59,571 nucleotides of DNA from positions 1 through 59,571 of IMG/VR virus record IMGVR_UViG_3300037478_000385; one strand, written 5' to 3'. The position numbers and the translations under genes were made by a program. The DNA comes from a virus. Taxonomy: Duplodnaviria > Caudoviricetes. Positions 13,150-58,168 of this stretch are shown here, in pieces (position 1 is the stretch's first letter; each line of letters opens with the position of its first letter). Under the pieces are notes generated by a model, which did no database searches, was not told the origin of the DNA, and saw only the letters and a list, made by a program, of their open reading frames with translations.

Positions 13150-13718
13150 GGGCGGGTCACCGCCTGCCGCTGCTTGGCTTTCTGCTCGCGCTTGCACGCT
13201 TCGCAGTAGGCGCGCCCGTCGGCCTCGTACCGGCCGTGCTGGGCCTGGTCGTGCCCGTGCACGCACTGCTCTGGCCGGGCCTGGCCACCGGTGAGGTACC
13301 GCAACTGCTCGCGGGTCCGCATCCGGCCGACCTCGTCGTCGACATGCTCGGGTGCGACGCAGTGCTGGTGGCCGCACTCGGCGAACACATAGCCGATGGG
13401 GTCCCTTCCGGTGCGGATGCGGAAGGCGACGGCGGCGGCGCTGTACGACTTTGGCCAGTACCGCAGGACTGGAGTGCCGGAGCATTTGGCGCGCTCGCCG
13501 GTCCACTCCAGGTGCCCGCCGTCGGGCCGGGTGTTGGCCTCCCACTTCTGCTCGAGGGTGAGCGGCTGGGGGATGTGGACACGGTTCGGGATGCGGAGTT
13601 CGGCGCGGATGCGGCGTACACGGACGCGGTCGGCGCGGAGTTCGCGGGCGATGGCGGTGTTCGATTTTCCTTCGCGGAGGGCGGTGATGATCTGGTCGCG
13701 GGTGGCTTTCTGGTTCAC
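13146..13718 (-). CDS. HTH plus degenerate HNH/His-Me-like protein (paralog)
   Basis: SNTAIAREL; GGHLEWTG; VAFRI; CGHQHCVAPEH; C-terminal CVHGH...CEAC. Confidence 0.6.
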   Translation of the reverse strand: MNQKATRDQIITALREGKSNTAIARELRADRVRVRRIRAELRIPNRVHIPQPLTLEQKWEANTRPDGGHLEWTGERAKCSGTPVLRYWPKSYSAAAVAFRIRTGRDPIGYVFAECGHQHCVAPEHVDDEVGRMRTREQLRYLTGGQARPEQCVHGHDQAQHGRYEADGRAYCEACKREQKAKQRQAVTRP

Positions 13719-13774
13719 CGTGTGGTCACCGCCTCGCGGTCGGGCCGCTGGCAGCCGGGCTGGCGGTAGACAGG

Positions 13775-14053
13775 TCAGGCATCTGCGGCCTCCCGGGAAT
13801 CCCGTGCGGTGCCGCATGCGACGCAGGTGGCGGTGCCGGCCTGGTCGTCTTCGTGCGCCGTGTACCGGACGCACCGGTCGCAGTCTGCGATGACCACGAG
13901 GTACGCGCCGGCGGGGTCGAACGTGGCGTGTACCGGCCGCGGCGTGTACCGGTGGCGCAGGCACCGCACGACCGCAGTCAGCCGGACATGCACCGCCCAC
14001 ACCAAGACCGCGAGGCCAACTCCGGCCGCAGCACCAGCAGCTTGAGTGATCAC
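13775..14053 (-). CDS. Membrane-anchored zinc-ribbon protein
   Basis: N-terminal TM segment; CDRC/CVACG. Confidence 0.5.
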   Translation of the reverse strand: MITQAAGAAAGVGLAVLVWAVHVRLTAVVRCLRHRYTPRPVHATFDPAGAYLVVIADCDRCVRYTAHEDDQAGTATCVACGTARDSREAADA

Positions 14054-14349
14054 GACTTGGTCTCCTCACGCTTGTCCTGGCGGCTCTCCTGCCAGCGCTC
14101 GCCCGCGGTGACGGCCGGGCCGTCGATGCCGCACGCCTGATCCAGACGCTTCTGCAAGGACCGGTTGCGGCACTCAAGCCGCCAGTTCGCGGCGTCTGCC
14201 TCGGCGTATTGGCGGGTGATGGTTTGGCGGTCGGCGTACTCGGTCTCAGCGACCCGCGCTGCGGCCTCGGCGTGCTCGCGCATACGGTCGAGCCGGTCAC
14301 GCAGATCAGCGATGTCACGCCGGTACCGGCGTCGGCTAACGAAGAGCAC
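14050..14349 (-). CDS. Hypothetical coiled-coil protein
   Basis: ORF in operon with RBS. Confidence 0.6.
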   Translation of the reverse strand: MLFVSRRRYRRDIADLRDRLDRMREHAEAAARVAETEYADRQTITRQYAEADAANWRLECRNRSLQKRLDQACGIDGPAVTAGERWQESRQDKREETKS

Positions 14350-15079
14350 CGGTGGCCTCCTTGAACAGGATCAGTGGCCACTGCGGCCGGACGGTCGGGG
14401 CGAGGTGTTCCTTGCCGGGTGTGCGCGCGAAGTACTCCTGCCGGGAGGCGGCCTGCTCGGCTGCCCACCCGATCTGCTGCTCGTGCAGCTCGGCGAGGGC
14501 CGCCCGGCCTACCTCCGGGTACTGCTGGGCGATACGCCACGCGACCCGGCACGCGGCGATCGCGTCGGCGTCAGCCGAGTGCGCGCCGGTCAGGATCACG
14601 CGGTAGTGGGCACACAGCGCTTCGAGCTTCCGCGACCCGGGCCTGTAGCGGTCGTATTGCCGGTCCAGGACCATGGGGTCGATGACACGGAGCTGGTCCG
14701 GGCCGATGATGTCGACCAGCGGCTGTATACCGTGCCGCCGCGCCTCACGATCGAGCAGCGTCAGGTCATACGCGGCGTTCATGGCGACGATCGGGATGCC
14801 GTCGCGCTGTACCTGCGCGAGCGCGGCCACGATGCTCTCGACGACCTCGGCTGCCGGGGCCCCCTTGGAGCGCGCCCGATCGGTGGTGATGCCGTGGATC
14901 TTCGCCGCGGCGTCGGGGATCTCGACACTGGGGTCAGCGAGCCACGACGCGGACTGCACCGGATGTCCACCACCACACTGCACAACCGCTGCGGTCACGA
15001 TCCGGTCAGACTCGACATCCAGGCCAGTCGATTCGCAGTCGAAGCCGGCCATCCTCTGCTCACTCCATACAGTGCTCAC
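14336..15079 (-). CDS. DnaQ-like (DEDDh) 3-5 exonuclease
   Basis: FDCESTG, MNAAYDLTLL, AHSADADA motifs. Confidence 0.9.
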   Translation of the reverse strand: MSTVWSEQRMAGFDCESTGLDVESDRIVTAAVVQCGGGHPVQSASWLADPSVEIPDAAAKIHGITTDRARSKGAPAAEVVESIVAALAQVQRDGIPIVAMNAAYDLTLLDREARRHGIQPLVDIIGPDQLRVIDPMVLDRQYDRYRPGSRKLEALCAHYRVILTGAHSADADAIAACRVAWRIAQQYPEVGRAALAELHEQQIGWAAEQAASRQEYFARTPGKEHLAPTVRPQWPLILFKEATGALR

Positions 15080-20300: not shown

Positions 20301-20540
20301 GTGATCACCCTAGACGCCGCGAGGGAGCTGCCTGTGCCCGACAAAACCAGAATCCTCACCGCTGACCTGGGACCCCGCATCGCCGCATTCACCTGCTGTA
20401 TCGACGGACAGCCGGCCGCTGTCGTGAACACCGCCACGGGCCATGACGCGGGCATACGGGCACAGGCCGCGCTGGTACTCGCCCGCGCCGGACTGGACGC
20501 CGACCTCATCATCGGAGCGCTGCATGGGATACGTAGCTGA
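20301..20540 (+). CDS. Hypothetical protein upstream of integrase
   Basis: ORF overlapping the int start. Confidence 0.55.
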   Translation: MITLDAARELPVPDKTRILTADLGPRIAAFTCCIDGQPAAVVNTATGHDAGIRAQAALVLARAGLDADLIIGALHGIRS

Positions 20541-21780
20541 CCGCTGGCACAAGTCCCGCCCCAGGCCCGGAGAGCCGGAGTGCGGGGAGCACAAGGGCAA
20601 GGTGGCCTCGAGCTCGCACGGGAAGGGCAAACGCTGGCAGGCCCGCTACGACGGGCCAGACGGACGCGAGCGGACCTCCCTGCACGCCACCCGCGCGGAG
20701 GCCGATCGGGAGATCGTCAAGCAGGAAGGCGCGAAGCTCACCGGGTCCTGGCTCGACCCCAAGGCCGGCCGCGTCACCGTCGAGACATTCGCGCTCGAGA
20801 CGTGGCTGCCCGCGCAGGGCATCATCGGCCGCACAGAGACCGAATACCGGGGCGTCCTGGACCGCTACCTGATCCCCGAGTGGGGGCCACGGGAGATCCG
20901 CTCCATCAAGCCCAGCGAGGCGGGGGCGTGGCAGCAGAAGCTGACCACCAAATACAAGCTGTCAGGCAGCTACCCGAACCGGGTCGCCCGCTACGTGCGC
21001 AGCGTCTTTCGGCTCGCAGTCGTCGACCGCGTCCTCGCTATGTCCCCGTTCGACGGGATCACAGCCCCCACCTTGGTGGAGTCGACGGTGCACCCGCCGG
21101 ACGTCGTCGAAGTACGGCAGATCATCGAGCACGCCTACAAGCCCCTGTGGGCAGCCCTGTTCGAGCTGGACGCGCTCACCGGACTCCGCTCGGGCGAGAT
21201 CCGCGGCCTGCGCCTGGACAAGGTCGACTTCCTGCGCAAGGTCGCGCGCATCGAGCAGCAGCTGGTGTACGAGAAGGGCCGCGGTCTGTACTTCGACGAG
21301 CTGAAGACCGGTGCCGGCCGCCGTGTGCTGCCGCTCAACCAACGCGCTGTGGACTCGCTGGCGGCGTACGTGGCGAAGTACCCGCCACCCTCGCAAGGCC
21401 CCTGGGCGGGGCTGATCTTCACGATGCCGGGCGGCCTGCCGATCGGTGAGAGCACGATCGACTGGGCGCTGAAGAACACCTGCCGGAAAGCCGGTTTAGG
21501 TGCGCGGCATATGCATGAGCTGCGGCACCACTACGCGAGCGTACTCATCGCAGGCGGCGAGAATCCGAAGGTCGTCTCCAAGCGGCTGGGGCACAAGGAC
21601 GTGATGATGACGATGCGGACGTATGCGCACCTGTTCGCGGAGGCGGAGGAGCAGACCCGTGACGTTCTGGATGCGGCATGGGCTGTGCCGGGTGAGACTG
21701 AGGGTGGATCTTCCGGAGCGGGCGGAAGGATTCCGGAAGCCCGGAGCGCGGAGGCGGACATTGTGCAGCTCAGGTCTTGA
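20524..21780 (+). CDS. int: Tyrosine integrase
   Basis: TGLRSGE, LKT, HELRH, LGH, YAH catalytic motifs. Confidence 0.95.
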   Translation: MGYVADRWHKSRPRPGEPECGEHKGKVASSSHGKGKRWQARYDGPDGRERTSLHATRAEADREIVKQEGAKLTGSWLDPKAGRVTVETFALETWLPAQGIIGRTETEYRGVLDRYLIPEWGPREIRSIKPSEAGAWQQKLTTKYKLSGSYPNRVARYVRSVFRLAVVDRVLAMSPFDGITAPTLVESTVHPPDVVEVRQIIEHAYKPLWAALFELDALTGLRSGEIRGLRLDKVDFLRKVARIEQQLVYEKGRGLYFDELKTGAGRRVLPLNQRAVDSLAAYVAKYPPPSQGPWAGLIFTMPGGLPIGESTIDWALKNTCRKAGLGARHMHELRHHYASVLIAGGENPKVVSKRLGHKDVMMTMRTYAHLFAEAEEQTRDVLDAAWAVPGETEGGSSGAGGRIPEARSAEADIVQLRS

Positions 21781-30905: not shown

Positions 30906-32867
30906 TCAGCCCTCCGCCAGCTCGACGACGGAGCCGTTACCGACGTTCCGCACGATGGACTTGAAGAAGGTGACGAAGGCGTCTTCGCCGCCGGTCACAT
31001 CGAGTACCACACGCGTCGTCACAGGCTGCACCTTGGTCACCGACGGAGCCTGCACTGTGTTGATCATGCTCTCCAGGCGGGACAGCGGCAGGATCGCCTC
31101 ATCCTCGCGGCCCTCACCCACCATCGCCACAGTGGGCCCGGTAGCAATACCACCCGCGGCCAGGAACGGGACAAACGGAATGGACGGGATGCTCACGCCC
31201 GGCACCCGGTTCGCACCACCGATCAGCGTATTGATCCCACCGATCGCCCGGTTGATCAAACTGATCGCACCGTTCAACGCCCCCCTGAGCCCGCTCGTGA
31301 TGCCATTCCACATGCCGGAGAAGAAGCCTCCGATCCGCTTCACCGCACCGGACACCTTGCTGGTGATGGCGGCCCACTGGCGGCTGATCCAACCAGTTAT
31401 GGGACCCCAGTTCCTGATGATGATCACGAGCGGATTGAAGTCGAAGAGAACAGCCTTGACGATGTTGATCGCCGCGCTGATCTTCCGCGTGATCCAGTCC
31501 AAGATGCCGCCGAGGAAGCCTCTGATACTGCCCCAGACGGCCTCAGCTTTGCCCTTGATCCAATCCCACAGTTGCCCAAGCTGCTGCTTGGCCCAGTCCC
31601 ACTTGAGGATCAGGAGGGCCACGATGGCGATCAAGGTGATGATGCCGAGAACAATCCACGTGATCGGGTTCGCGAGAAGGGCGATCGTCCACGCGATCGT
31701 CGCCGCCGTCAGCACCAGGAAAATCTCTGCCAACACGATCATCGCCGGAATCACCGCCGCCTTGATCAGCCCCTGGTGCTCCCGGAAGAACTCACCGACC
31801 CGTATCAGCACCGGCAGCAGCAGCTCACCCAGAGTGTTCTGCACGGTGCGCATCACCGCGTCGAACTGCTGCGCCGGATCACCCTCCATCGCAGCAATCA
31901 GATCCTGCATAGACCCGCCCGCGTTATCCAGCCCGGCCGATGCCGCCGCACTCGCTGGATCGAGCGCGTACAGCGCATCACCCATGACATTGGCCGGATC
32001 ACCGAACAACGCCGCCGCCGCGTTCAACTTGGTCTGCTCATCCGTCGTACCCCGCAGCGCGTCCAGCGTCTCCTGCAAGGCACCCTCGGCGTGCTTGCCG
32101 CCCTTGCCGATCTTCGCGGCCATGTCGTCCGCGCTGAGCCCGATCGAGGAGTAGGCATCGTCCACGGCGGTGCCGCCGGCCAGGGCCCGCTCACCGAACT
32201 GCCCGATCGCGTCGGCTACCTGGTCGGCATCCCGCGCGCCGTTGTTCAGCGCCTGGGAGATCAGCCCCATCGACGTCTGCCCGTCCAGCCCGACCCGGCG
32301 GAACTGCGTCGAGTACTCCTCCATTGTGGGCAGCACGTCATCCCGCAGTTCGGCAGGAATCGACTGCATGGTCTTGGCGATCAGGTCGAAGCCCTCGGTG
32401 GCGTCGGCGACCAAGTCCGTCTTGATGAGCTTGCCTACCGCGCCCGTCGCGTCGGCAACATCAACCTTGAACGTCTTCGACAACGCCAAAGCGGAAGCCG
32501 ACATCTCCTCCAGCTCGGCATCCGTGAAATCCCCCAGGTCCCCGATGGACGTCTGGACACCGCCCAGCGCATCAGCGACATCCGCCATCGAGTCACCAAA
32601 ACCCCGACTGAACACATCCCCCGCAACATCGCCCGCACGCTGCGCCTCCACCTCGGTCAGCCCGAGTTGGTTCTGGAGGCTGGTCTGCGCGGAGGCGATG
32701 TCCATGGCCCCCTCGATGCCGAAAGAGAACGCCGCGCCCACCGCCGCGCCCGCGATGCCGGCGCCAGCGGCCACACCGGCGAGGCCGCGGTTGACGCGGG
32801 CCCCGCCCTCCACCGTGTCATCCTGGATACCGATACGGACGAGGAGCTCATCGAGGACGGTTGCCAT
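30906..32867 (-). CDS. Tape measure protein
   Basis: MATVLDELLVRIG; Ala-rich; NPITWIV and W-periodic repeats. Confidence 0.9.
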   Translation of the reverse strand: MATVLDELLVRIGIQDDTVEGGARVNRGLAGVAAGAGIAGAAVGAAFSFGIEGAMDIASAQTSLQNQLGLTEVEAQRAGDVAGDVFSRGFGDSMADVADALGGVQTSIGDLGDFTDAELEEMSASALALSKTFKVDVADATGAVGKLIKTDLVADATEGFDLIAKTMQSIPAELRDDVLPTMEEYSTQFRRVGLDGQTSMGLISQALNNGARDADQVADAIGQFGERALAGGTAVDDAYSSIGLSADDMAAKIGKGGKHAEGALQETLDALRGTTDEQTKLNAAAALFGDPANVMGDALYALDPASAAASAGLDNAGGSMQDLIAAMEGDPAQQFDAVMRTVQNTLGELLLPVLIRVGEFFREHQGLIKAAVIPAMIVLAEIFLVLTAATIAWTIALLANPITWIVLGIITLIAIVALLILKWDWAKQQLGQLWDWIKGKAEAVWGSIRGFLGGILDWITRKISAAINIVKAVLFDFNPLVIIIRNWGPITGWISRQWAAITSKVSGAVKRIGGFFSGMWNGITSGLRGALNGAISLINRAIGGINTLIGGANRVPGVSIPSIPFVPFLAAGGIATGPTVAMVGEGREDEAILPLSRLESMINTVQAPSVTKVQPVTTRVVLDVTGGEDAFVTFFKSIVRNVGNGSVVELAEG

Positions 32868-33213
32868 CTGATGTGCTCCCTTCGTCTTGCCGGTCGTATT
32901 CGGACTGGATGCCCTTGATCATGTTGAGTAGTTGCCGCCCGGTCTTACGCCGGGCTTTCCGACTCCACTGCATCAAGTGATCTTTCAGCTTCGGCTTGCG
33001 GCCCTTCCGCATGTTCGGTGCCGCGATGTCCATCCCCAGCCGTGCGGCGACCATGTCGAGACGGTTCGGGGTGATGGGCCCGTACAGGTTCTGGTAGGCG
33101 ATCAGGCGGATCATTTCGTCCTCCCAGAAACGCTGCAGCACCTCACCGGGAGTCATCTGGAATGCGACGGCCAGGTCATACTGGATCTTCAGCTCTGGCC
33201 GGTCGAGAAATCC
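32848..33213 (-). CDS. Tail assembly chaperone frameshift extension (gpT-like)
   Basis: The -1 frame is open from G_GAT_TTC (33207-33213) up to the tape measure gene. Confidence 0.65.
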   Translation of the reverse strand, partial: GFLDRPELKIQYDLAVAFQMTPGEVLQRFWEDEMIRLIAYQNLYGPITPNRLDMVAARLGMDIAAPNMRKGRKPKLKDHLMQWSRKARRKTGRQLLNMIKGIQSEYDRQDEGSTSDGNRPR

Positions 33214-33611
33214 TCTTCAGCCTTCTTGATCTTCTCGACGAAGTCAGTCTCAGCTTCATCGCCGGACAGGTACTTGCACAGGTTGAACAGTCCGTTGACC
33301 GCACCTGCGTCGCTCTTGTCCAGCCACGCGACACCCTCCCGCAGGTCCGGGAAGACCAGCTCATCCGTCTCCGGATCGTGTAGCGACTTCGCGACGATCC
33401 ACGCCTTGTTGGAGGTGATCGACATCTCTGCCGTGTCCTTCTTGCCCGGCGTCATGTGTAGCTTGTTCAGCCGGTTCTGGTACTGCTCCCAGTCGCCCGA
33501 GGGCAGCCCACGCACCCGAAAGGTGCCGCCGCCGAACTGCGGCACATCCACGTCCTCGAACTTCGGACCCTGGCCAGCGGCGTTGACAATGAGATCTTTC
33601 AGGCTGCCCAT
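33189..33611 (-). CDS. Tail assembly chaperone (gpG-like)
   Basis: Position after the tail tube gene; EDVDVPQFGG. Confidence 0.8.
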   Translation of the reverse strand: MGSLKDLIVNAAGQGPKFEDVDVPQFGGGTFRVRGLPSGDWEQYQNRLNKLHMTPGKKDTAEMSITSNKAWIVAKSLHDPETDELVFPDLREGVAWLDKSDAGAVNGLFNLCKYLSGDEAETDFVEKIKKAEEDFSTGQS

Positions 33612-42893: not shown

Positions 42894-44954
42894 CTAGTCC
42901 CAGCGGGCTACAACCGTGCCCCGGCAGCGCACTCCGCCCTCACACAGCTGGTAGCCGCCGGTCGCGTATGCCGCGTTCGCTGCTGCCAGGTCCTCGAACT
43001 CTGTGCCGTCGATCTCACGGCATGGCGAGCAGGTATTACGATCTCGACGTTCGTCCGAAAAATATGCGGCTTTCGGTGCGGCCTCCAGCGTCGCCACACG
43101 GCCCGCGTTCTGCGCCCGATGCAGCGCACCACCCAACTGGTCACGGCGGAACCAGTTCTTCAGGCCGCGTAGGAACCCGACGACTTGCCCCGCGACGCCC
43201 TCACCGTCTGCGCCTGGCACCATCAACCGCAGCGCCTCACGCCCCGCCGACCCCGCAGCATCCGAACCCAGCAGCGTCGCAGTGGCCTGCGCGATCTCCA
43301 CCAGCTCGCTGCCGAACGCGTTCCGCAGCCTCTTCGACAACTGTGGCTTGCGGACCTTCACGCCCTGCTCGGCGGCCTCCTCCACCATCTGCTTGGCGCC
43401 GACCTCGGCCATGGTCGCCAGCGCGGCGCGCAGCACATCCGCAGCGTCATCGGTGCTGACCGTCAGCTCGGCCAAAGCGGAAGAGTCCTTCTTGTCGACG
43501 GCTTTCTCGATCTGGGCGGCCAGCTCTTCGTATTGGGCGTCGGCGATGTCCTCCCACCGTTTCAGCAGCATGTCGAGGGCGTCTTCGAGGGGCTCGCGGA
43601 CTTCCTCCGCATCAGCTTCCTCGTCTCCGGCGGCGGCGACAGCGGGAGCAGCAGCGGGGAGTGCCAGCGGTCGGCGGGTGGCGGTGCGTGCTGTCACCTG
43701 CGGCGCGTGGTGGTGAATGTCCAAACGAGATGCCGCAGCCGGCACAGCCACAGCCGAACCCGGCGTGGCTGGCGCGGGCGGCCGGTAGCCCAGATCCGGT
43801 AGACCCAGATACTCCACTACGAGTCGCGGTTCGGCTCCGGCGTCGATGAGCGTCTTGTACGCCGTGGTCTTCGCCGTGAGTTCAGCGTTGCGGGCCGCGG
43901 CGTCCGGGGGGACCGGGTCGTCGTAGTCGAACTCCAGACTGCCCGCGGTGGCCGGCCCGTACAGGGGCAGCAGGTCGTTGTTGAGGGCCTGCTTCCAGCG
44001 TTCCAGGCGCGGCACGGTCAGCAGTTCGGCGAAGAGGACTTTGGATGCTTCGGCGGTGGCGCGGTTGACGTCGCCGACCTCGCCGAGGACGAACGCGGGG
44101 ACACCAAACGCCCGCATGATCTTGTCGTCGCTGGCCTTACCCAGCTCCACGAACTGCATGTCCCTCATGGTGTACTTACGCTCAACCCATTTCGCGCCGT
44201 GCTCCAGCACGGCGATGCGGTGCGCGTTGGACACGCCCTGGTGCTGCTCCTGCCAGCGGGCCGTCATCTCATTAAACTCGTCGTCCTGCAACTCGTTGGG
44301 GACTTCGATGACCCCGCCGGGCTCCGCGGAGTTGCGGAAGAAGTTCCGGTTCCACTCCTCGGCTGCCTGCGCCGAGTCGAGGCTGACGAGGATCGTCTGC
44401 ACCGCGCCCATGCCCCGGTACGGGTCCAGCGGGTTGGGGGTGCGCATGAAGATGACCTCGTTGAGTTTGAGGGGGATCTTCTCGCCCGACGGGCCCGTGT
44501 ACTCGTACCTGTTGATGAAATCCGTCGGGTGCGGCACCGGCGCCATACGATCCGGGCGCACAGGCCACAACTCCAACGGCATCGGGGACCGCGGATTGTA
44601 GGCGACTGTCAGCCAGCCCTCGCCGGTCAGATCGATGTGCTGCTGCCCGACCTCCACCAGTTCCTGACGGGTCATGAACGGGTTCGGGTGGTTCCACACA
44701 TCGAGCGCCGCATGCCGGGTGACCTCGACACGGTCTTCTTTCAGCCCCGAGGCGGCTTTGCGGTAGAGCCTCCAGTTCACCTGCGCCGTCGCATTGCTGG
44801 TGCGGTTGACGATGGAGAACAGTGTGCCGACAGAGCCCATGGCGCGCATCTGCGCCTCGGCACCGGTCAAGTGCCGCCACGGGAAAGACAGGTTGCGGCC
44901 GGACACGTACGGCACCGGCGTGCGGTTGAGCAGGGCGCGCAGCGGTGACCTCAC
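42894..44954 (-). CDS. Portal protein fused to a Mu gpF-like C-terminal domain
   Basis: HPNPFMT, LWPVRPDRM, FFRNSAEPGG, AFGVP; C-terminal DRNTCSPC...CRGT. Confidence 0.9.
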   Translation of the reverse strand: MRSPLRALLNRTPVPYVSGRNLSFPWRHLTGAEAQMRAMGSVGTLFSIVNRTSNATAQVNWRLYRKAASGLKEDRVEVTRHAALDVWNHPNPFMTRQELVEVGQQHIDLTGEGWLTVAYNPRSPMPLELWPVRPDRMAPVPHPTDFINRYEYTGPSGEKIPLKLNEVIFMRTPNPLDPYRGMGAVQTILVSLDSAQAAEEWNRNFFRNSAEPGGVIEVPNELQDDEFNEMTARWQEQHQGVSNAHRIAVLEHGAKWVERKYTMRDMQFVELGKASDDKIMRAFGVPAFVLGEVGDVNRATAEASKVLFAELLTVPRLERWKQALNNDLLPLYGPATAGSLEFDYDDPVPPDAAARNAELTAKTTAYKTLIDAGAEPRLVVEYLGLPDLGYRPPAPATPGSAVAVPAAASRLDIHHHAPQVTARTATRRPLALPAAAPAVAAAGDEEADAEEVREPLEDALDMLLKRWEDIADAQYEELAAQIEKAVDKKDSSALAELTVSTDDAADVLRAALATMAEVGAKQMVEEAAEQGVKVRKPQLSKRLRNAFGSELVEIAQATATLLGSDAAGSAGREALRLMVPGADGEGVAGQVVGFLRGLKNWFRRDQLGGALHRAQNAGRVATLEAAPKAAYFSDERRDRNTCSPCREIDGTEFEDLAAANAAYATGGYQLCEGGVRCRGTVVARWD

Positions 44955-45130
44955 GCGTCCTCCCCAGTCAGGTACTCCACGATGAGGCAGGACACGCCGC
45001 CCGCAGCCAGGCCGGCCGGAGTACCAAGCCCGGTCCACGCCGCAGCGGTGAGACCACCGAACCCGCCGAGGGCGAGGATGGTGGTGCGGGCCCGGGCCCA
45101 GAGGGGACCAAGCTTACGAAGCCTGCTCAC
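44951..45130 (-). CDS. Small membrane protein
   Basis: Hydrophobic, 59 aa; GTGA overlap with the portal gene. Confidence 0.6.
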   Translation of the reverse strand: MSRLRKLGPLWARARTTILALGGFGGLTAAAWTGLGTPAGLAAGGVSCLIVEYLTGEDA

Positions 45131-45141
45131 GCGGCGCCTCC

Positions 45142-45705
45142 TCAGAAGAGGAACCCGCCCTCTTGCGGATTCCTTGCCAGCCGTTCGTTGTGCTGACGCC
45201 AGGCTTCGTAGACCTGCCGGTCAACCTCGAACGCCTCGGGCTCCATGACGCCCTTCTTGCGGTTACAGGTCTGGCAACACCACTTGGTGTTGGTGCGGTA
45301 GTAGGGCGGCTTGTCCCGGTCGACGACGTCCAAGGTGATGTCGCCGAGCCCGTGGCCCATCTCGCGGTACTGGTGTCCGCAGTAGTTGCAGCCGTTGCCG
45401 TACTGGAACTCGGCGTCGTGAGCGAGCCGTTCGGCTTCCCAGCCGTAGCGGGTGACAAGGTCGTTCTTGTCTATGCCGAAGCGGGTGGCGTGGCGGCGGA
45501 TGACGTCGCGGGCCTTGACAGCCCACCGGTTACCGAGCTTCCGCTGATCTCGCTTGGTCTGCTCACACGGACGGCAGATCGTGTTGCGGTATTGCCGTCT
45601 TACGTTGGATGCATCTCTCGTAAAACCGCTGCGCCGGAACGCCCCTTCGACGAGGTGTGACGGGTAGTAGGTGCCGCACCGGTTACAGCGGCGGCCATCT
45701 GGCAC
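45142..45705 (-). CDS. HNH/zinc-finger endonuclease-like protein
   Basis: CNRC, CRPC, CNYCG...TLDVVD...N..WCCQTCNRKKG. Confidence 0.7.
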   Translation of the reverse strand: MPDGRRCNRCGTYYPSHLVEGAFRRSGFTRDASNVRRQYRNTICRPCEQTKRDQRKLGNRWAVKARDVIRRHATRFGIDKNDLVTRYGWEAERLAHDAEFQYGNGCNYCGHQYREMGHGLGDITLDVVDRDKPPYYRTNTKWCCQTCNRKKGVMEPEAFEVDRQVYEAWRQHNERLARNPQEGGFLF

Positions 45706-45796
45706 GATCGATTCCTCCCAGACATGCGAAAGGCCCCGAGCTGGGAGTCTCGGGGCCTCTCTTCCCGCGCGGATCAAGCGCGGGCATCTTCGGTTG

Positions 45797-47298
45797 TTAC
45801 AGCCAGCGGACGCGTGTGCGGCCAGCGCTGTAGTACGCGAGCAGCAGGGCGTCCGCATTGTCCGGACTTCTACCGAGCCGCTTGATGACTTCGTCTTTCT
45901 TCTCCACCCGGATCCGGCCCTGCGGGTCCGCATCCCAGCGCGGCTCCAGCAGCTGCGCGACGGTGGCGTCTGCGTTGTCCATCGAGGACAGGTCCCAGCC
46001 CTTGCGTTCGGACAGGCCTCGGCCGATCTCCCACCAGATCTCGGCGCGCAGGTTCACGAACTTGTCCGGGCGGGATGCTTTCTCGCCGACGTTCACCGCC
46101 CGGATGTGCGCGGTGTGTTCGCCACGGGAGGCTGCGTTACGGAGTTCGCCGATCACACCGAACCCGACGCCGATGGAGTCGACCTTGACTGCGGTCGCAC
46201 CGGTCTCCTTGATGGCCGCGAGGACCATGGGTGCGATCTTCTCCGGCCGGTCCGTGTGCGCCCGCCACTCCCTGCCGGCCCGGACACCACGCCGTTCGCG
46301 GATGACGGTTTCATCCCCGCCGCCACCGACGTCGACGCCGAGCTCGACCGGCTCCAGGTCGGCGAGCGCGCGCCGGGTCTCTGGGTTGATACGGCAGGCG
46401 GCGATGTCTGAGGCGCGGACGATCTGGTTCGGGGAGTCCTCGGAGAACTCGCCGAGGACCTTGCTGCGGTAGAGGGGGTTGTCCTCGCCCCACTCGCGGG
46501 CCTTCTCCTCCACCCACTCCCGGCCGACCAGGGCCAGCGCCACCGCGGGCGGCACCTGTTCGCCGGTGAGGTTCGGGGAGTCGAACGCACTGATGCTGAG
46601 GGTGTGCCAGCCGGAGCCCGGGGTGCACACCCGGCGGAAATGGCTTGCCGGCGAATCCGGGTTTCCGATGGCCAAGAGCCTGCAGTCGGCGTTGGTGGTC
46701 AGCGCGTCCGCGGCGACCCACAGCTGCTCAGGCACGCCGCATGCCTCGTCTACGATCACCAGTACATAGCGGGCGTGGATGCCCTGGAACGCCGACTCGT
46801 CATGATCCGCAGGCTTCCGGCCGAACGCGACCATCTCATCGTCGATGTGCCACTCGGTCTGATTCACCCGGCCGGCGAGCTGCCCGGCCTTGTGATTGCG
46901 GCGGATGTACCGCCACAGAATCGCCCTAACCTGCGCATAGGTCGGTGCGGTGGTGACTACGAAGGCCTCGCCGGGCGGGTGGGTATCGAGCCACCAGCAC
47001 GCTGCCAGCGAAGCCGTGTGGCTTTTCCCACGCCGTGCCCGGAGCGCACCGCGGTGCGCCGATGGTCCCGCACACTGTTGAGGATCTCGCCCTGCTTCGA
47101 CCACACCGTCTGGCCGAGGCGCTCCCGGACCCAGCGGACCGGGTCATCGGCGTAGCGGGCCGCGCGGTCGGTGAGGTTCCGGCGGTCCACCGCACTCTTG
47201 AGCTGGTCGCGGATCTCACGGAGCCGGGAGGTGTCGCCAGCGCGTACGAGCTGTTCGATCTGTTCGCGGACGCTGTCAATCTCCGGTGCCGTCGCCAT
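45797..47298 (-). CDS. terL: Terminase large subunit, split by a -1 frameshift at 47023-47029
   Basis: Frame 1 ends ...SGHGVGK; the -1 frame continues SHTAS..., Walker B VIVDEA, IGNP, nuclease GVDVG and SPDNADAL. Confidence 0.9.
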
Positions 47299-47779
47299 CG
47301 CTGCCTCCCAGGTTGTTGAGGAGGTCGCCGATCTCGGCGCCGAGCTTCTCTGCGTCCACGGACACGCGGGACGGAGCGTCCAATCCGAGGAGCTTCCTGT
47401 AGCTCTCCCTGACTTTCACCAGGCGGTCTATCGCAGCCAGCTTCGGCCCATCATCAAGCAAGGGCTCGCCGTCGTCGCCGTAGACGATCCGGCCGTGAGA
47501 GACCATCACGTGCTCCCGGGTCAGCACGTCCAGAGCCTCGACGTACAGCTCGTCGAGCTGCGCGGCCTCGGTGCGGATGAGTTTCTCGGCGGGCCCGTGG
47601 AGGACTGCTTCGCGGGCGGCTTGCACGGCGCGCCAGGCTTCGCCTTTGTTGGCCCACCCAAGCTCATCGGCGATCTGCTGGAAGGTGCGGCCTTGGGCGC
47701 GGAGGGCGGCGGCCTGGGCGTAGCGGGCGGCGGTTTCGGGGTTCTCGGCGTAGCGGCCGTTGCCGTTGCGGATCTGCAT
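47276..47779 (-). CDS. terS: Terminase small subunit
   Basis: HTH GRTFQQIADELG; RKLLGLDAP; upstream of terL. Confidence 0.8.
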   Translation of the reverse strand: MQIRNGNGRYAENPETAARYAQAAALRAQGRTFQQIADELGWANKGEAWRAVQAAREAVLHGPAEKLIRTEAAQLDELYVEALDVLTREHVMVSHGRIVYGDDGEPLLDDGPKLAAIDRLVKVRESYRKLLGLDAPSRVSVDAEKLGAEIGDLLNNLGGSDGDGTGD

Positions 47780-47891
47780 ACGGCCTCCCTTCCGGCAGGG
47801 GTTGCCGCCCGGGTCCCGCCTAGGTCCCGGACGGCTGGCTGCCCTACCTCCACCCCACTCGCCACCGAGTGGTCTAAAGCCGTTACGCCCT

Positions 47892-48035
47892 TTAGGCGGA
47901 ACGGCGCTCATCTTCCTCGACCGCACGTCGTACGAGATACAGCAACTCCGAGTTGACGGAGCGGTCCTCCGACGCGGCAAGGGCCTTCAGCTTGTCGTGT
48001 AGATCTTCGGGGATGCGTAGCGTGAAATTGACCAT
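47892..48035 (-). CDS. Arc-family ribbon-helix-helix protein (47 aa)
   Basis: MVNFTLRIPEDLHDKLKALAASEDRSVNSELLYLVRRAV; below the ORF-track length cutoff. Confidence 0.85.
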   Translation of the reverse strand: MVNFTLRIPEDLHDKLKALAASEDRSVNSELLYLVRRAVEEDERRSA

Positions 48036-48063: not shown

Positions 48064-49221
48064 ATGCAACTCCGGTACAACTTCCGCTTGGACCCGACGC
48101 CGGGTCAGCGCATCGCGCTGGCACGCACGTTCGGGTGCGCGCGGACGGTGTACAACGACGCATTGCGGGCCCGGAAGGACGCCCACGAACAGGGCCAGCC
48201 GTTCCCGAAGTCGGGGGACCTATCGAAGCTGCTGATCACGCAAGCGAAGCGCACCGAAGAGCGGGCGTGGCTTTCCAACGCACCCGTCGGTGTCATGCAG
48301 CAGGCGCTACGGGATCTCGACACCGCGTACCGGAACTTCTTCGACTCCCTGTCGGGCAAGCGCAAGGGCCCCAAGGTCGGGGAGCCCCGGTTCCGGTCAC
48401 GCCGGGACAACCGGCAGACCGCCCGCTACACCCGCTCCGACCGCTGGACCATCACCGAAAGCGGCAAGCTGCGGCTACCGAAGGTCGGGGAAGTCAAGGT
48501 CAAGTGGTCCCGGTCCCTGCCGTCCGATCCCACGTCGGTGACGGTCGTCAAGGACGCGTCCGGCAGGTACTTCGCGTCGTTCGTCGTGCAGACCGATCCG
48601 TCCGAAGTGTTGCCGGAGACCACGGGCCAGGTCGGTATAGATCTGGGCCTGACTCACTTCGCAGTCCTCTCCGACGGGCGGAAGATCACCGCGCCGAAGT
48701 TCTTCCGCCGCGCCGAACGCAAACTCCGCAAGGCGCAGCAGAACCTCAGCCGCAAAGCCAAGGGCTCGAACAACCGCAAGAAGACCGTCGTCAAGGCCGC
48801 CCGGGCTCACGCCCGCGTGAAGGATGCACGGCGGGACCACCACCACAAGCTGTCCACCACGTTGATCCGCGAGAACCAAGCGATCTACGTCGAAGACCTC
48901 GCGGTGAACGGACTCGCCCGCACCCGCCTCGCCAAGAGCGTGCACGACGCCGGATGGTCCACGTTCGTCAGCATGCTGGAGTACAAAGCCGCACGCTACG
49001 GGCGAGCGTTCGCCCGCGTCGACCGGTTCTTCCCCTCCTCGCAGCTCTGCTCCGCATGCGGCTTCAAAGACGGCCCGAAGCCCCTCGCGGTCCGCGAATG
49101 GACCTGCCTCGGCTGCGAGACGACACACGACCGCGACATCAACGCCGCACGCAACATCCGAACCGAAGGACGAAAAGTCGCCGCCGGACGGGCGGAGACC
49201 CAAAACGCCTGCGGAGGCTGA
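48064..49221 (+). CDS. tnpB: RNA-guided endonuclease TnpB
   Basis: YNFRLDPT..Q; RuvC GIDLG, VEDL, HDRDINAARN; CSACG/CLGC. Confidence 0.95.
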   Translation: MQLRYNFRLDPTPGQRIALARTFGCARTVYNDALRARKDAHEQGQPFPKSGDLSKLLITQAKRTEERAWLSNAPVGVMQQALRDLDTAYRNFFDSLSGKRKGPKVGEPRFRSRRDNRQTARYTRSDRWTITESGKLRLPKVGEVKVKWSRSLPSDPTSVTVVKDASGRYFASFVVQTDPSEVLPETTGQVGIDLGLTHFAVLSDGRKITAPKFFRRAERKLRKAQQNLSRKAKGSNNRKKTVVKAARAHARVKDARRDHHHKLSTTLIRENQAIYVEDLAVNGLARTRLAKSVHDAGWSTFVSMLEYKAARYGRAFARVDRFFPSSQLCSACGFKDGPKPLAVREWTCLGCETTHDRDINAARNIRTEGRKVAAGRAETQNACGG

Positions 49222-49457: not shown

Positions 49458-51014
49458 TCAGTCAAGGCGGGGCCGTCCATGCTGCTTGCTGTTGGCGAGT
49501 ACGAGCTGGTGCCGGCCGTCGGTGTCGCGGGTAACGGCTCCGGCGTCGGCGAGTTTGCCGAGTGCGGCGTGGACTGCGGCTTTGGATCTGCTGGCGCGGC
49601 GTGCGATCTCCGAGAGGCTGAGCGGCTCGGTGGAGACCAGCAGGACGGTGGTGATGTCGTCGGCTACGGTCGGCGCCTTGGGTGCGGGCCGCCCGGTTGC
49701 GGGTGCTGCTGGTTCCTTCACCGGGGCCGGGGCTGGGGCAGGTGTCTGGGCATCGGTCAGTAGCTGGTCGGGTGCGATCTGCCGGAACCGGGTCTCGTCC
49801 AGGAACACGGCCTTCGCCTCGACCGGTGCACGGTGCTTGGACGATTTGACCAGCAGCCAGTGGTCCCGCAGCTTGTGGGGCTCCCAGCCCTCGGCGGTCT
49901 CGTCTTTGAAGACCACCGCGGATTCCTGGGATGACTCCAGCCGCAGGCAGACCCGCACGTTCAACTGGGACCGGAGCTCGGTGGGCAGGTTCGTGGACTT
50001 GGGGAATTGCGTGACCCACACGAAGTACACGCCCAGGGCGCGGCCCTGTTCGACCGCGGTGAAGAACCGCTTGAGCTGATCCGGCTTGAAGTCACGGGTG
50101 AGGACGTTCCCTTCGTCGATCATCACGGCCAGGGCCCGGTCGTCGGCGGTCTCCCGCCAGGTGGAGGTCTGGAGTTGGAGCATCCGCTTGGCACGGCGGG
50201 GGAACTCGACGTCGAGGAGCCAGTCCGTGTACGCGGCGGCGGCCGCGGTGGTGGTGATCCTCGTGGCCTTGCCTTCGAAGTGCTGGGATTCCAAGCCCTG
50301 CTTCAGGTCGATCACGGTCAGGTCGGCGTCGATGGCCTGCACGATGTGAGCGCCGATCGTCCGCTGCACGCAGGACTTACCGGACCCGGAGGTGCCGAAG
50401 ATGCCGATGCGCTGCCGAACGTCCAACGTGACGTGGTCGCCGTGCGGGGTGGTCGCCAGGTGTACCGGGTCGGCGAGGCGCACCGGCCCGGCCGGCGGCT
50501 GCCACAGCAGCGGGCGGGCAAGCGGGTCCCGCACCGTGAGTTCGAGGACTGCCCGGTCGGCGCGCCCGGTACTCAGCACGCGTACCGACCCGGCTCGTAG
50601 GCCCAGGCCGGTCTCCAACTGCGAGGTACGCGCGGCGAGCATGTCCAGCGTCAGGGCGCGGGTCAGCGTGACATGCACCGCCACACCAGACGGAGTACGA
50701 CGGACTTTCCCCCGCTTCAGCCCGGGCAGCTGCCGCGCGGTCACCATGCCGTCCCACCGATCGGGGTCGAGAAGCCGGGCTGCGACACGCATCGGGAGAC
50801 CGTAGCGGCGCGCCCACACCCAGTGCCGTAGAACGCGGGCCAGGCGGCGCAGCGCCGACCGAACGAGCCGGTAAGCCGCCTTACGGACGCTGCGGCTACG
50901 AAGCAGCAGGAACGCGGCGAGCGCGGCCAGGACGATCACGCCGTGTGGGCCGAGTCCGGCGAGGAGCGGATCGAGTGCGATCTCGTCGGTAGGGTCAGGC
51001 GTGCCGGTGGGCAT
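49458..51014 (-). CDS. traB: FtsK/SpoIIIE-like conjugative DNA translocase (TraB)
   Basis: N-terminal TM; Walker A GTSGSGKS; Walker B VMIDEG; GRALGV...TQFP; C-terminal winged HTH. Confidence 0.85.
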   Translation of the reverse strand: MPTGTPDPTDEIALDPLLAGLGPHGVIVLAALAAFLLLRSRSVRKAAYRLVRSALRRLARVLRHWVWARRYGLPMRVAARLLDPDRWDGMVTARQLPGLKRGKVRRTPSGVAVHVTLTRALTLDMLAARTSQLETGLGLRAGSVRVLSTGRADRAVLELTVRDPLARPLLWQPPAGPVRLADPVHLATTPHGDHVTLDVRQRIGIFGTSGSGKSCVQRTIGAHIVQAIDADLTVIDLKQGLESQHFEGKATRITTTAAAAAYTDWLLDVEFPRRAKRMLQLQTSTWRETADDRALAVMIDEGNVLTRDFKPDQLKRFFTAVEQGRALGVYFVWVTQFPKSTNLPTELRSQLNVRVCLRLESSQESAVVFKDETAEGWEPHKLRDHWLLVKSSKHRAPVEAKAVFLDETRFRQIAPDQLLTDAQTPAPAPAPVKEPAAPATGRPAPKAPTVADDITTVLLVSTEPLSLSEIARRASRSKAAVHAALGKLADAGAVTRDTDGRHQLVLANSKQHGRPRLD

Positions 51015-57737: not shown

Positions 57738-58016
57738 ATGGAGAAAAACGAGATCAGCAGCCATGAAGTGCTCGTCTACCGCGAACTCGCCAAGGGTGAA
57801 TGGATCACCAGCAAGGCCATCGCAGAGGCAGCCGGAGTCGCGCCCCGCACTGCTCGCGCGCACGCCTTGAAGCTTGTCCGGCTCGGCATCGTCGATCAGG
57901 CCGAGGTCTTCCCCGCCCACCGCTACCGGCTCAGCACCCACGCCGCGAAACGGAACCGGGGCTACGCCGACCGCATCACGCGAGCAGCCGAAGTGCTCGG
58001 CATTCCGCTGGCCTGA
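57738..58016 (+). CDS. Winged-HTH protein
   Basis: WITSKAIAEAAGVAPRTARAHALKLVRLGIV. Confidence 0.7.
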   Translation: MEKNEISSHEVLVYRELAKGEWITSKAIAEAAGVAPRTARAHALKLVRLGIVDQAEVFPAHRYRLSTHAAKRNRGYADRITRAAEVLGIPLA

Positions 58017-58168
58017 CCTACGCCAGCCGACTAGGGCCCTCATCTTCGGATGGGGGCCCACTGCTATGCCGTCCGGCCCGGGAACGCAGGAAGGCCGCCC
58101 GGAGCTGGGGGCTCCAGACGGCCGATGCCACACACGGGGGCGTGGTGGCTGTTCTTCCCGCGGTCAGG

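What the first reader, a model, noticed from the sequence alone, without database searches (positions are those of the whole stretch)
46957..47298. Terminase large subunit split at Walker A by an in-phase G_GGA_AAA slippery site
Seen: the minus strand reads GGG CAC GGC GTG GGA AAA GCC. Frame 0 gives GHGVGK-ATRL and stops at 113 aa; a -1 shift at 47023-47029 gives the complete motif GHGVGKSHTAS and full-length TerL. GGA AAA codons are atypical at this GC content. Known: GGGAAAA is the usual actinophage tail-chaperone frameshift signal. Inference: either programmed recoding that limits packaging ATPase, or a 1-bp deletion (real or an assembly error). A real deletion would make the prophage packaging-defective or leaky, possibly relying on conjugation.
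Basis: partly seen in the sequence, partly recalled or inferred. Interest (0 to 1): 0.8.

Follow-up and report, generated by a model that had tools for sequence, protein, structure and literature searches.

The report
Conserved frameshift site inside phage terminase
The DNA-packaging motor gene of this Streptomyces-type phage is one base short inside its ATP-binding motif, at a classic ribosome-slippage signal kept by several distinct complete phage genomes, so the enzyme is most likely made by programmed frameshifting, not lost.

Summary
On the minus strand terL is split at GTG GGA AAA GCC (heptamer 47023-47029). Frame 0 stops after 113 aa; a -1 slip restores GHGVGKSHTAS and a 500-aa TerL like its relatives.

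It is not an assembly error. Independent contigs from three runs, one a 2025 soil study, show no indel there.

It is not a dead gene. Five IMG/VR records in two lineages (68% aa identity) carry G_GGA_AAA in phase, and four are 97-100% complete. Between carriers the downstream frame has dN/dS 0.05-0.11.

All four distinct carrier sequences also have:
- an 8-bp stem starting 7 nt after the heptamer (5 of 110 in-frame relatives);
- a rare GTA codon that creates the frame-0 UAG (4 of 97).

No in-frame relative has both. At least seven further protein clusters break exactly after GK.

Best reading (0.72): -1 ribosomal frameshifting is needed to make TerL. Whether it regulates or only compensates is open, and no expression data exist. 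Published precedents are only speculative: phiHau3 bypassing and the vB_MoxS-R1 split terL. Inteins occupy the same K|S site in relatives.

The parts
47023..47298 (-). terL codons 1-92 in frame 0 (ATG at 47298-47296 to Lys92 AAA at 47025-47023). It includes the N-terminal helices and the first half of Walker A (GHGVGK).
   Evidence: It aligns to residues 1-92 of the 500-aa relatives.
47023..47029 (-). Slippery heptamer G_GGA_AAA, in phase with frame 0. After a -1 slip the next codon is AGC (Ser93), which completes GKS.
   Evidence: The identical heptamer is in L009, L037, L118 and L120.
47016..47022 (-). 7-nt spacer between the heptamer and the hairpin.
   Evidence: The spacing is the same in all four distinct carrier sequences.
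46964..47015 (-). Predicted stem-loop of 19 bp, with a lower stem GGCUUCGCUGG / CCGGCGAGGCC. It is the candidate frameshift stimulator.
   Evidence: MFE -31.3 kcal/mol and z -2.69, with 5 of 200 shuffles as stable. The strict 8-bp lower stem is in 4 of 4 carrier sequences and 5 of 110 in-frame ones. One pair varies C-G / U-G / U-A.
46957..47022 (-). Frame-0 tail of 21 codons (ATRLRWQRAGGSIPTRPARPS) and UAG (46959-46957). The UAG is made by the rare Val codon GTA (46960-46958) of the TerL frame.
   Evidence: GTA occurs at this Val in 4 of 4 carriers and 4 of 97 in-frame relatives.
45797..47023 (-). terL codons 93-500 in the -1 frame (Ser93 to stop at 45799-45797). It holds the rest of the ATPase (VLVIVDEA Walker B-like) and the nuclease domain.
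   Evidence: phrog_2 at E 2.3e-30. It is 96% identical to P0001. dN/dS is 0.05-0.11 among carriers.
47276..47980 (-). Upstream ORF of 234 aa that overlaps the terL start by 23 nt. By position it is the likely small terminase subunit. Its only family hit is phrog_645 (named RNase E).
   Evidence: The small-terminase role is inferred from position only.
42894..45038 (-). Portal protein gene downstream of terL. It gives the context of the packaging module.
   Evidence: PF04860 at E 8.7e-63 and phrog_2662.

Best explanation
The terL gene really is one base short inside its Walker A codons, and full-length TerL is made by -1 ribosomal frameshifting.

Proposed mechanism:
1. Ribosomes translating frame 0 reach G_GGA_AAA, with tRNA-Gly on GGA in the P site and tRNA-Lys on AAA in the A site.
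2. A GC-rich stem-loop starting 7 nt downstream sits at the mRNA entrance. A fraction of ribosomes slip back one base, so the tRNAs re-pair on GGG and AAA.
3. Those ribosomes continue with AGC (Ser). This completes GHGVGKS and the remaining 408 residues of a 500-aa terminase identical in layout to in-frame relatives.
4. Ribosomes that do not slip add 21 residues and stop at a UAG just after the hairpin. They release a 113-aa N-terminal fragment.

Shown: the allele is real, heritable, spread over two lineages of complete phage genomes, and under purifying selection downstream of the break.

Inferred: the slip itself, its efficiency, and its purpose. Possible purposes are keeping TerL low relative to the upstream gene, producing the N-terminal fragment, or merely compensating an otherwise lethal deletion.
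For: 1. The site is real. The X1 contig (3560 nt, depth 196) has 0 differences and 0 gaps. X2, from another study, has a 4733-nt contig at depth 159 with 126 differences in 1602 nt and 0 gaps. X3, a 2025 soil study, has a 1155-nt contig covering 46420-47400 with 76 differences and 0 gaps. The table of inserted or deleted letters is empty.

2. It recurs. L009 (92.5% nt identity) and L037 (88.9%) have the identical GT-GGGAAAAGCCA. L118 and L120 read TCG GGA AAA GTC, the same heptamer in phase. Their downstream TerL is only 67.9% identical to the window's, and their nearest in-frame relatives, L051 and L053, are 87% identical.

3. Selection acts on the downstream frame. dN/dS there is 0.05, 0.097 and 0.107 at dS 0.28-0.43, while wrong-frame controls give 1.9-8.7. 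Between L118 and L120 there are 15 synonymous and 1 nonsynonymous changed codons.

4. The carriers are whole phages. The window has a terminal repeat and CheckV 100%. G001 is 100% and G002 97%. G004 is 100%, and G005 is 100% with a terminal repeat. G002 is a mosaic whose portal gene is only 72% nt identical to the window's.

5. There is a single terL by phrog_2 in the window, G004 and G005. PF03354, PF03237 and PF04466 find nothing more in the window.

6. Accessory signals accompany the site. The 8-bp stem 7 nt downstream is in 4 of 4 distinct carrier sequences and 5 of 110 in-frame ones. The GTA codon giving the frame-0 UAG at codon 21 is in 4 of 4 carriers and 4 of 97 in-frame ones. No in-frame sequence has both. 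The 60-nt MFEs are -31.3, -30.7, -30.7 and -34.2, against a mean of -23.1 (sd 4.0) for 84 in-frame sequences.

7. Lesions elsewhere look different. Among 112 loci, the only other frame breaks (L105, L112, L113) lie in bacterial chromosomes at other positions, and L112 has several.

8. Protein-only carriers break exactly after GK and have a homologous out-of-frame tail: P0122, P0123, P0140, P0141, P0149, P0160, P0168 and P0192.
Against: - No RNA, proteomic or reporter evidence exists, and no RNA run was listed.
- The in-frame protein P0001 nests inside the window's clade as sister of L037 with support 99/95. The state is therefore evolutionarily labile, as expected if the deletion is tolerated rather than favoured.
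- The heptamer arises automatically from a one-base loss in a G4A4 run like that of L021 and L034. Its phase is not independent evidence.
- In lineage 1 the hairpin predates the deletion. In-frame L002 (-33.1 kcal/mol) and L052/L090 (-31.8) have it too.
- The two carrier lineages give only two independent observations for the stem and GTA associations.
- The protein-only carriers come from a search whose query contained the out-of-frame tail, so their concentration at GK is biased. At least six other short forms break elsewhere: P0146, P0230, P0248, P0281, P0205 and P0284.
- The efficiency of G_GGA_AAA in actinobacteria is unknown to me.
- No cultured phage carries this allele; the best cultured relatives are at most 39% identical.
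Confidence: 0.72

Rival explanations
1. Tolerated ('compensated') deletion. A one-base loss in a G4A4 run happened to create a slippery site. Low unprogrammed slippage yields just enough TerL, and the state is mildly deleterious with no regulatory role. The molecular mechanism is the same as in the best explanation; only the adaptive status differs.
For: - In-frame P0001 is nested among the carriers.
- G4A4 in-frame alleles exist in L021 and L034.
- The hairpin is already present in in-frame L002.
- The concept of indels compensated by low-level frameshifting is described in PMC5009743 (passages).
Against: - The allele persists over dS 0.28-0.43 and in a mosaic genome.
- A second lineage has the same heptamer, the same 7-nt spacing and the same stem.
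- The rare GTA codon creating the frame-0 stop is gained in both lineages but is absent from their in-frame sisters L002, L051 and L053.
Confidence: 0.15
2. Dead pseudogene. The element no longer packages its own DNA. It persists as a plasmid or integrated element, spreads through its FtsK/SpoIIIE-like protein, or uses a helper phage's terminase.
For: - The frame is broken inside the catalytic P-loop.
- An FtsK/SpoIIIE-like ORF at 49458-51014 and an integrase at 20443-21780 are present.
Against: - dN/dS is 0.05-0.11 downstream of the break, and 15 synonymous to 1 nonsynonymous changes separate L118 and L120.
- There is no second lesion in any carrier; the downstream frames stay open for 408-410 aa.
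- Genuine decayed copies (L105, L112, L113) look different.
- The structural module is intact and 96% identical to G001 over 17 kb.
Confidence: 0.05
3. The frame is restored at the RNA level. RNA polymerase slippage on the G3 or A4 run inserts a base, and the ribosome does not slip.
For: The site is a pair of short homopolymer runs. Transcriptional slippage is a known alternative in phage and IS genes (PMC5009743, title and abstract seen).
Against: From my own knowledge, productive transcriptional slippage needs longer runs, and three Gs or four As are short. The conserved 7-nt spacer with a hairpin and the tandem-slip heptamer fit a ribosomal mechanism.
Confidence: 0.05
4. Sequencing or assembly artefact at a homopolymer.
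For: The site is a G3A4 run, and all data are metagenomic.
Against: - Three runs from three coded studies agree, one from a different year and habitat, at depths 196, 159 and 6.7.
- The IMG and Logan assemblies agree, with no indel in any laid contig.
- The carriers differ at 7-11% of other positions, so they are not copies of one assembly.
Confidence: 0.02

Closest known systems
Canonical bacterial and phage -1 programmed ribosomal frameshift sites (X_XXY_YYZ plus spacer plus stem-loop). Examples recalled, not tested here: dnaX, IS911, and the tail assembly chaperone G/GT of long-tailed phages. GGGAAAA is cited for mycobacteriophage TM4 in PMC4626039 (passage).
   Same: An in-phase heptamer G_GGA_AAA, a 7-nt spacer, a stable GC-rich stem-loop, a short frame-0 product and a longer -1 product.
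   Different: - The host gene is the large terminase.
- The shift is inside the catalytic Walker A, so the frame-0 product cannot be an active enzyme and the shifted product is the only functional one. In G/GT both products act.
- Most family members are in-frame (110 of 114 distinct sequences).
Streptomyces phage phiHau3 terminase: candidate UUA-triggered translational bypassing of two 10-nt inserts (PMC10732093, passages read; PMC5009743, passages).
   Same: - A Streptomyces phage large terminase whose frame is interrupted and is proposed to need recoding.
- The first phiHau3 break follows ...KGWG and precedes KD..., which reads like that protein's own P-loop (my inference from the g6 and g7 sequences quoted).
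- A proposed link between terminase synthesis and host translation state.
   Different: - It is a different TerL family. The quoted g6-g8 sequences bear no evident likeness to this protein; I ran no alignment.
- The phiHau3 inserts are 10 nt and start with UUA. Here one base is missing and there are no TTA codons at all (0 of 5671 codons).
- The proposed mechanism there is bypassing, not a tandem -1 slip.
[quoted passage not shown] Also Gordonia phage Nyceirae, with a split terL.
   Same: - An inducible actinobacterial phage with terL in two ORFs.
- In the record, gp44 ends ...RPRGWG* and the gp45 frame continues SKSPF. The break therefore lies inside a GWG-KS P-loop-like motif.
   Different: - No canonical heptamer is visible at that break (GGT TAG CAA G).
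- The authors call their proposal speculative and offer no comparative support.
- It belongs to a different terminase family.
- Nyceirae is split between the ATPase and nuclease domains, not at Walker A.
Inteins inserted in the P-loop of phage terminase large subunits (PMC2807308, passage).
   Same: - The same codon boundary is used.
- P0137 carries about 361 extra residues between GVGK and SH. They match DnaB mini-inteins at E 1.2e-22 and end with HN|S.
- L066 carries a 340-codon in-frame insertion at K|S.
- L143 reads GK|CIYHMEM....
   Different: The window has no insertion. It is one base short, and nothing is spliced at the protein level.

Membership tests
Large terminase subunit (TerL) | Significant profile or fold match to known TerL | tested here: met
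   - phrog_2 at E 2.3e-30.
- The AF2 model of the in-frame relative P0001 (mean pLDDT 61) has as top Foldseek hits Sf6 gp2 (3.7e-11), T4 gp17, D6E and HK97 TerL.
- Pfam terminase models stay below their cut-offs.
Large terminase subunit (TerL) | Intact Walker A (G/AxxxxGK[ST]) in one reading frame | tested here: not met
   Frame 0 gives GHGVGKA followed by unrelated residues. The motif GHGVGKS exists only across a -1 shift.
Large terminase subunit (TerL) | Position in a packaging module, after a small-subunit candidate and before the portal gene | tested here: met
   An upstream ORF at 47276-47980 overlaps the terL start, and the portal gene lies at 42894-45038.
Programmed -1 ribosomal frameshift site | X_XXY_YYZ heptamer in phase with the upstream frame, allowing both tRNAs to re-pair | tested here: met
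   G_GGA_AAA at 47029-47023 in the window. It is identical in L009, L037, L118 and L120.
Programmed -1 ribosomal frameshift site | Stimulatory RNA structure 5-9 nt downstream | tested here: met
   - A 7-nt spacer and a 19-bp stem-loop, -31.3 kcal/mol, z -2.69.
- The stem is in 4 of 4 carriers and 5 of 110 in-frame sequences.
- One covarying pair.
- This is a prediction only, and the stem is also present in in-frame L002.
Programmed -1 ribosomal frameshift site | Conservation of the site, and purifying selection on the downstream frame, across diverged genomes | tested here: met
   Two lineages and five records. dN/dS is 0.05-0.11, and changes are 15 synonymous to 1 nonsynonymous.
Programmed -1 ribosomal frameshift site | Both protein products observed, or frameshift efficiency measured | not testable with these tools
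   No RNA holder was listed, and there are no proteomic data.
phiHau3-type UUA-triggered bypass in terminase | UUA codon followed by a short non-coding insert at the break | tested here: not met
   There are 0 TTA codons in 5671 codons. The gene is one base short, not longer.
Intein-interrupted TerL | In-frame insertion with intein splicing blocks at the P-loop | tested here: not met
   There is no insertion in the window. The feature is met in the relatives P0137 and L066.
Decaying pseudogene | Relaxed selection and several lesions | tested here: not met
   A single lesion, an open 408-aa downstream frame, and low dN/dS. L112 and L113 give the contrast.

The most novel reading that the evidence does not exclude
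The P-loop codons of actinophage large terminases may be a recurrent recoding switch. Three cases would be variants of one strategy: a -1 frameshift at G_GGA_AAA here, the candidate UUA bypass in phiHau3, and a break inside GWG|KS in the inducible vB_MoxS-R1. In each, synthesis of the packaging ATPase depends on an inefficient decoding event at rare codons, which is therefore sensitive to host state. That would tie DNA packaging to the physiological state of a differentiating host. A second, non-exclusive twist follows from the break sitting exactly on the K|S boundary, where mobile inteins insert in sister lineages. The one-base-short allele may also destroy the homing site and so protect the gene from intein invasion.
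Probability: 0.25. Interest if true: 0.9.

Novelty: new variant of a known kind. Interest (0 to 1): 0.8.

Why it matters
- TerL is the hallmark gene used to recognise, classify and judge the completeness of tailed phages. A conserved frameshift inside its catalytic motif makes pipelines call such phages defective. Here gene callers produced a 113-aa ORF and a 356-aa ORF in 4 and 7 records respectively.

- If the slip is real, it would be the first comparatively supported -1 programmed frameshift in a packaging ATPase that my searches found. Searches returned only the phiHau3 bypass hypothesis and one speculative note on vB_MoxS-R1.

- It offers a tractable system for asking whether phages throttle or time packaging through translation. 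The heptamer, spacer and hairpin fit within about 70 nt.

- It links three kinds of events at the terminase P-loop: recoding, short inserts and inteins.

Tried and rejected
I used the search for related loci instead.
- Strict DNA pattern. It found only L009 and L037 in viral contigs. The single metagenome hit, L116, proved unrelated.
- Loose pattern. It also matched the in-frame G4A4 alleles L117 and L119, so each hit was checked by translation.
- The search for related loci with P0192 and P0149. It gave 35 loci, none a carrier. The DNA of those protein-only carriers, and of P0001 and P0123, was never seen.
- RNA evidence: no RNA holder listed.
- Run X4 gave no piece across the site.
- Rfam: no family at gathering score in the window.
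- tRNAs: only a 94-nt tRNA-Arg call. There is no phage tRNA-Lys or tRNA-Gly that could tune the site.
- Shine-Dalgarno-like stimulator. L118 has AGGAG 12 nt upstream of the heptamer, but the window has none. It is not a shared signal.
- Independent translation of the downstream ORF from the GTG at 47104. This was rejected because that product would lack residues 1-66 and would read ...ALRARRGKS, with Leu at the position five residues before the Gly of GKS, where Walker A needs G or A.
- A two-polypeptide TerL was rejected because the break is between the GK and S of the P-loop.
- Curtobacterium phage Yappy looked like a carrier in tblastn but is in-frame.
- Cultured phages: none is closer than 39% identity, and the best record overall (47%) is metagenomic.
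- The first structure-free Pfam scan did not recognise TerL.
Full report
**What is there.**
The window is a complete IMG/VR virus record of 59,571 bp. It has a 127-nt terminal repeat and a CheckV completeness of 100%.

It encodes a siphovirus-type module on the minus strand:
- a small-terminase candidate at 47276-47980;
- terL;
- portal at 42894-45038;
- protease, major head, adaptor and major tail genes;
- a tail chaperone with a -1 extension ORF;
- the tape measure gene.

It also has an integrase, an FtsK/SpoIIIE-like gene and two TnpB-type genes.

- The minus strand reads GTG GGA AAA GCC, with the heptamer at 47029-47023.
- Frame 0 (46957-47298) gives 113 aa ending GHGVGK plus 21 unrelated residues.
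- The -1 frame continues SHTASLAACWWLD... for 408 aa to 45797.
- Together they make a 500-aa protein. Of the best 120 database relatives listed, 110 are continuous proteins of 490-512 aa, mostly from Streptomyces.

The protein is a large terminase.
- phrog_2 matches at E 2.3e-30.
- The AF2 model of the in-frame relative P0001 (mean pLDDT 61) hits Sf6 gp2, T4 gp17, D6E and HK97 TerL in Foldseek.
- In that model the break lies between strand 81-86 and helix 92-106, that is, inside the P-loop.

**Not an artefact.**
Logan contigs, built independently of the IMG assembly, were laid on 45797-47400.

| Run | Contig | Depth | Differences | Gaps |
|---|---|---|---|---|
| X1 (likely source) | 3560 nt | 196 | 0 | 0 |
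| X2 (another study) | 4733 nt | 159 | 126 in 1602 nt | 0 |
| X3 (soil, 2025, another study) | 1155 nt, covering 46420-47400 | 6.7 | 76 | 0 |

X4 did not cover the site. No inserted or deleted letter was reported in any run.

**Not alone.**
Two IMG/VR contigs carry exactly the same one-base-short site. L009 is 92.5% nt identical over terL and L037 is 88.9%.

Their records are whole phages.
- G001 is 53.5 kb and 100% complete. It is 96% identical to the window over 17 kb of structural genes but only 91% over terL.
- G002 is 48.5 kb and 97% complete. It is a mosaic whose portal gene is only 72% nt identical.

A degenerate pattern scan then found a second lineage, L118 (G004, 48 kb) and L120 (G005, 111.5 kb, terminal repeat, 100% complete).
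- They read TCG GGA AAA GTC. This is again G_GGA_AAA in phase, with different flanking codons.
- Their downstream TerL is 67.9% identical to the window's.
- Their nearest in-frame relatives, L051 and L053, are 87% identical.

Altogether, of 114 distinct sequences at this position, 4 (from 5 records) are frameshifted and 110 are in-frame.

**Protein-level carriers.**
- The 113-aa form has 4 cluster members and the truncated 356-aa call has 7, from JGI and Logan.
- P0123 is a lineage no closer to the window than to in-frame proteins. It breaks at the same GVGK|ATRL.
- A profile-free HMMER scan of 1.84 billion representatives found further short proteins that break exactly after GK and continue with a homologous wrong-frame tail: P0140, P0141, P0149, P0160, P0168 and P0192.
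- Among the 20 sequences I fetched, at least six break elsewhere: P0146, P0230, P0248, P0281, P0205 and P0284.
- The query contained the tail, so this enrichment is biased. I never saw the DNA of these proteins.

**Selection.**

| Pair | dN/dS downstream (-1 frame) | dS |
|---|---|---|
| window - L009 | 0.05 | 0.276 |
| window - L037 | 0.097 | 0.429 |
| L009 - L037 | 0.107 | 0.416 |

- The same region read in the two wrong frames gives 1.9-8.7. The upstream part has dN/dS 0.18-0.35.
- L118 and L120 differ at 16 downstream positions, 14 of them third codon positions. That is 15 synonymous and 1 nonsynonymous changed codons.
- No carrier has a second lesion.
- By contrast, the other three loci with frame breaks among 112 (L105, L112, L113) are in bacterial chromosomes, at other positions, and L112 has several.
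- The window, G004 and G005 each have one phrog_2 match only. Three Pfam terminase ATPase models find nothing else in the window. In G001 and G002 the loose first look of that tool missed even the known gene, so those two say nothing.

**Signals around the site.**
- A stem-loop is predicted 7 nt after the heptamer: 19 bp, -31.3 kcal/mol, z -2.69, with 5 of 200 shuffles as stable.
- The four carrier sequences fold at -31.3, -30.7, -30.7 and -34.2. Equivalent 60-nt stretches of 84 distinct in-frame relatives average -23.1 (sd 4.0), and 2 of 84 reach -31.3.
- The strict 8-bp lower stem (GGCUUCGC with GCGA[A/G]GCC) is in 4 of 4 carriers and 5 of 110 in-frame sequences.
- One pair runs C-G, U-G, U-A across five sequences.
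- In all carriers the frame-0 reading stops at codon 21, just past the hairpin. The stop exists because the TerL-frame Val codon is the rare GTA, which is found in 4 of 4 carriers and 4 of 97 in-frame sequences.
- No in-frame sequence has both the stem and GTA. The in-frame sisters of each lineage lack GTA: L002 for lineage 1, and L051 and L053 for lineage 2.

These associations rest on two independent lineages only. In lineage 1 the hairpin is older than the deletion, since L002 folds at -33.1.

**Caveats on 'programmed'.**
- The heptamer is what a one-base loss from GTG GGG AAA AGY would leave, and L021 and L034 have that in-frame sequence.
- The tree places the in-frame P0001 inside the window's clade. 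The clade has support 100/98, and P0001 is sister of L037 at 99/95. At least two state changes occurred there.
- The allele is therefore gained or lost easily. Selection may act mainly by letting only those deletions survive that fall on a slippery, hairpin-backed spot.
- That still means TerL is made by ribosomal slippage. Whether the low output is useful is not shown.

**Other readings.**
- Independent initiation of the downstream ORF would give a protein without the first 66 residues and without a proper P-loop.
- Transcriptional slippage on G3 or A4 is unlikely, from my own knowledge of the run lengths it needs.
- Loss of function with spread by the FtsK-like protein conflicts with the selection data.

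**Relation to what is known.**
They found no supported programmed frameshift in a large terminase.

The nearest items are:
- **phiHau3 terminase.** It has two 10-nt UUA-headed inserts proposed to be bypassed. The first follows KGWG and precedes KD (PMC10732093 and PMC5009743, passages).
- **vB_MoxS-R1.** A speculative paragraph discusses this inducible Microbacterium prophage (PMC9030533, passage). Its record shows the break inside ...RPRGWG* / SKSPF.
- **Gordonia phage Nyceirae.** It is split between the ATPase and nuclease domains.

The supplements of these papers were closed. Figure S5 of PMC9030533 and the terminase data files of PMC10732093 could bear on how common such breaks are.

Inteins without an N-terminal nucleophile are known to sit in terminase P-loops (PMC2807308, passage).
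- Here P0137, in the sister clade, and L066 carry such inteins exactly between K92 and S93.
- L143 carries a Cys-start one.
- The frameshift thus sits on an intein homing site. This invites the untested idea that the short allele resists homing.

**Verdict.**
This is a real, recurrent and selectively maintained one-base-short terL. Its product most likely depends on a -1 ribosomal frameshift at a canonical site. It is a new variant of a known kind of signal, in a gene where it has not been established. Confidence in the mechanism is 0.72 and interest is 0.8.

Noticed in passing
window 45142-45933 (-): A 263-aa Cys-rich ORF with a phrog_1035 (endonuclease VII) match at E 7.9e-8 lies between terL and portal and overlaps the terL end. 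The stretch is absent from G001, G002 and G003, where terL and portal are adjacent. It therefore looks like a free-standing homing-endonuclease-type insertion specific to the window.
   Followed up: partly
P0137 residues 93-453; L066:1981-3000; L143 near 2632: Inteins are inserted exactly between Lys and Ser of the TerL Walker A in relatives. Two start with Ala and end HN|S, and match DnaB mini-inteins at E 1.2e-22, with weak LAGLIDADG hits. One starts with Cys. P0137 is otherwise nearly identical to the intein-free P0136, so the intein seems mobile in the sister clade.
   Followed up: partly
window 45797-47980 compared with G001: The terS-terL region is 91% identical to G001, while the following 17 kb of structural genes are 96% identical. 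The packaging genes have a separate history (mosaicism), possibly linked to the neighbouring endonuclease insertion.
   Followed up: no
window 49458-51014 (-), 20443-21780 (+), 1809-3017 (-), 48064-49221 (+), 13146-14552 (-): These ORFs are an FtsK/SpoIIIE-like ATPase, a tyrosine-type integrase (phrog_1), two TnpB/OrfB_IS605-type ORFs, and a 468-aa protein with an HNH endonuclease domain. The element is a temperate phage with several mobile-element passengers.
   Followed up: no
window 32848-33611 (-): The tail assembly chaperone gene (33189-33611) is followed by a -1 frame extension ORF (32848-33216). The 28-nt overlap has no canonical X_XXY_YYZ heptamer, and the only slip-prone spot is GAT TTC. 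This phage's own G/T shift does not use GGGAAAA.
   Followed up: partly
L118:2120-2161 and L120:10120-10161: In the second carrier lineage an AGGAG lies 12 nt upstream of the heptamer, inside the codons for Arg-Ser. It is a possible Shine-Dalgarno-like stimulator. The window lineage has nothing similar.
   Followed up: no
L159:757-1200 (Microbacterium phage vB_MoxS-R1, MW073100): The published split terL of this inducible prophage breaks inside a GWG|KS P-loop-like motif (GGT TAG CAA GTC). This is the same functional spot as here and as the first phiHau3 insert, in a different terminase family.
   Followed up: partly
L041 and L008 (in-frame relatives): Some in-frame relatives read GTG GGA AAG AGC or GTA GGA AAG AGC at the same codons. 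L041 thus has an in-phase G_GGA_AAG heptamer in an intact gene, where slippage would abort TerL.
   Followed up: no
window 57934-58027 (-): ARAGORN calls a 94-nt tRNA-Arg (anticodon TCG). Rfam reports no tRNA at gathering score, so the call is doubtful.
   Followed up: no
Streptomyces phages Kradal, Satis, Frankenweenie and others: The terminase matches in these 186-200-kb cultured Streptomyces phages come in two pieces spanning about 2.2-2.3 kb for about 445-475 residues. This suggests insertions, possibly inteins, in their terL too.
   Followed up: no
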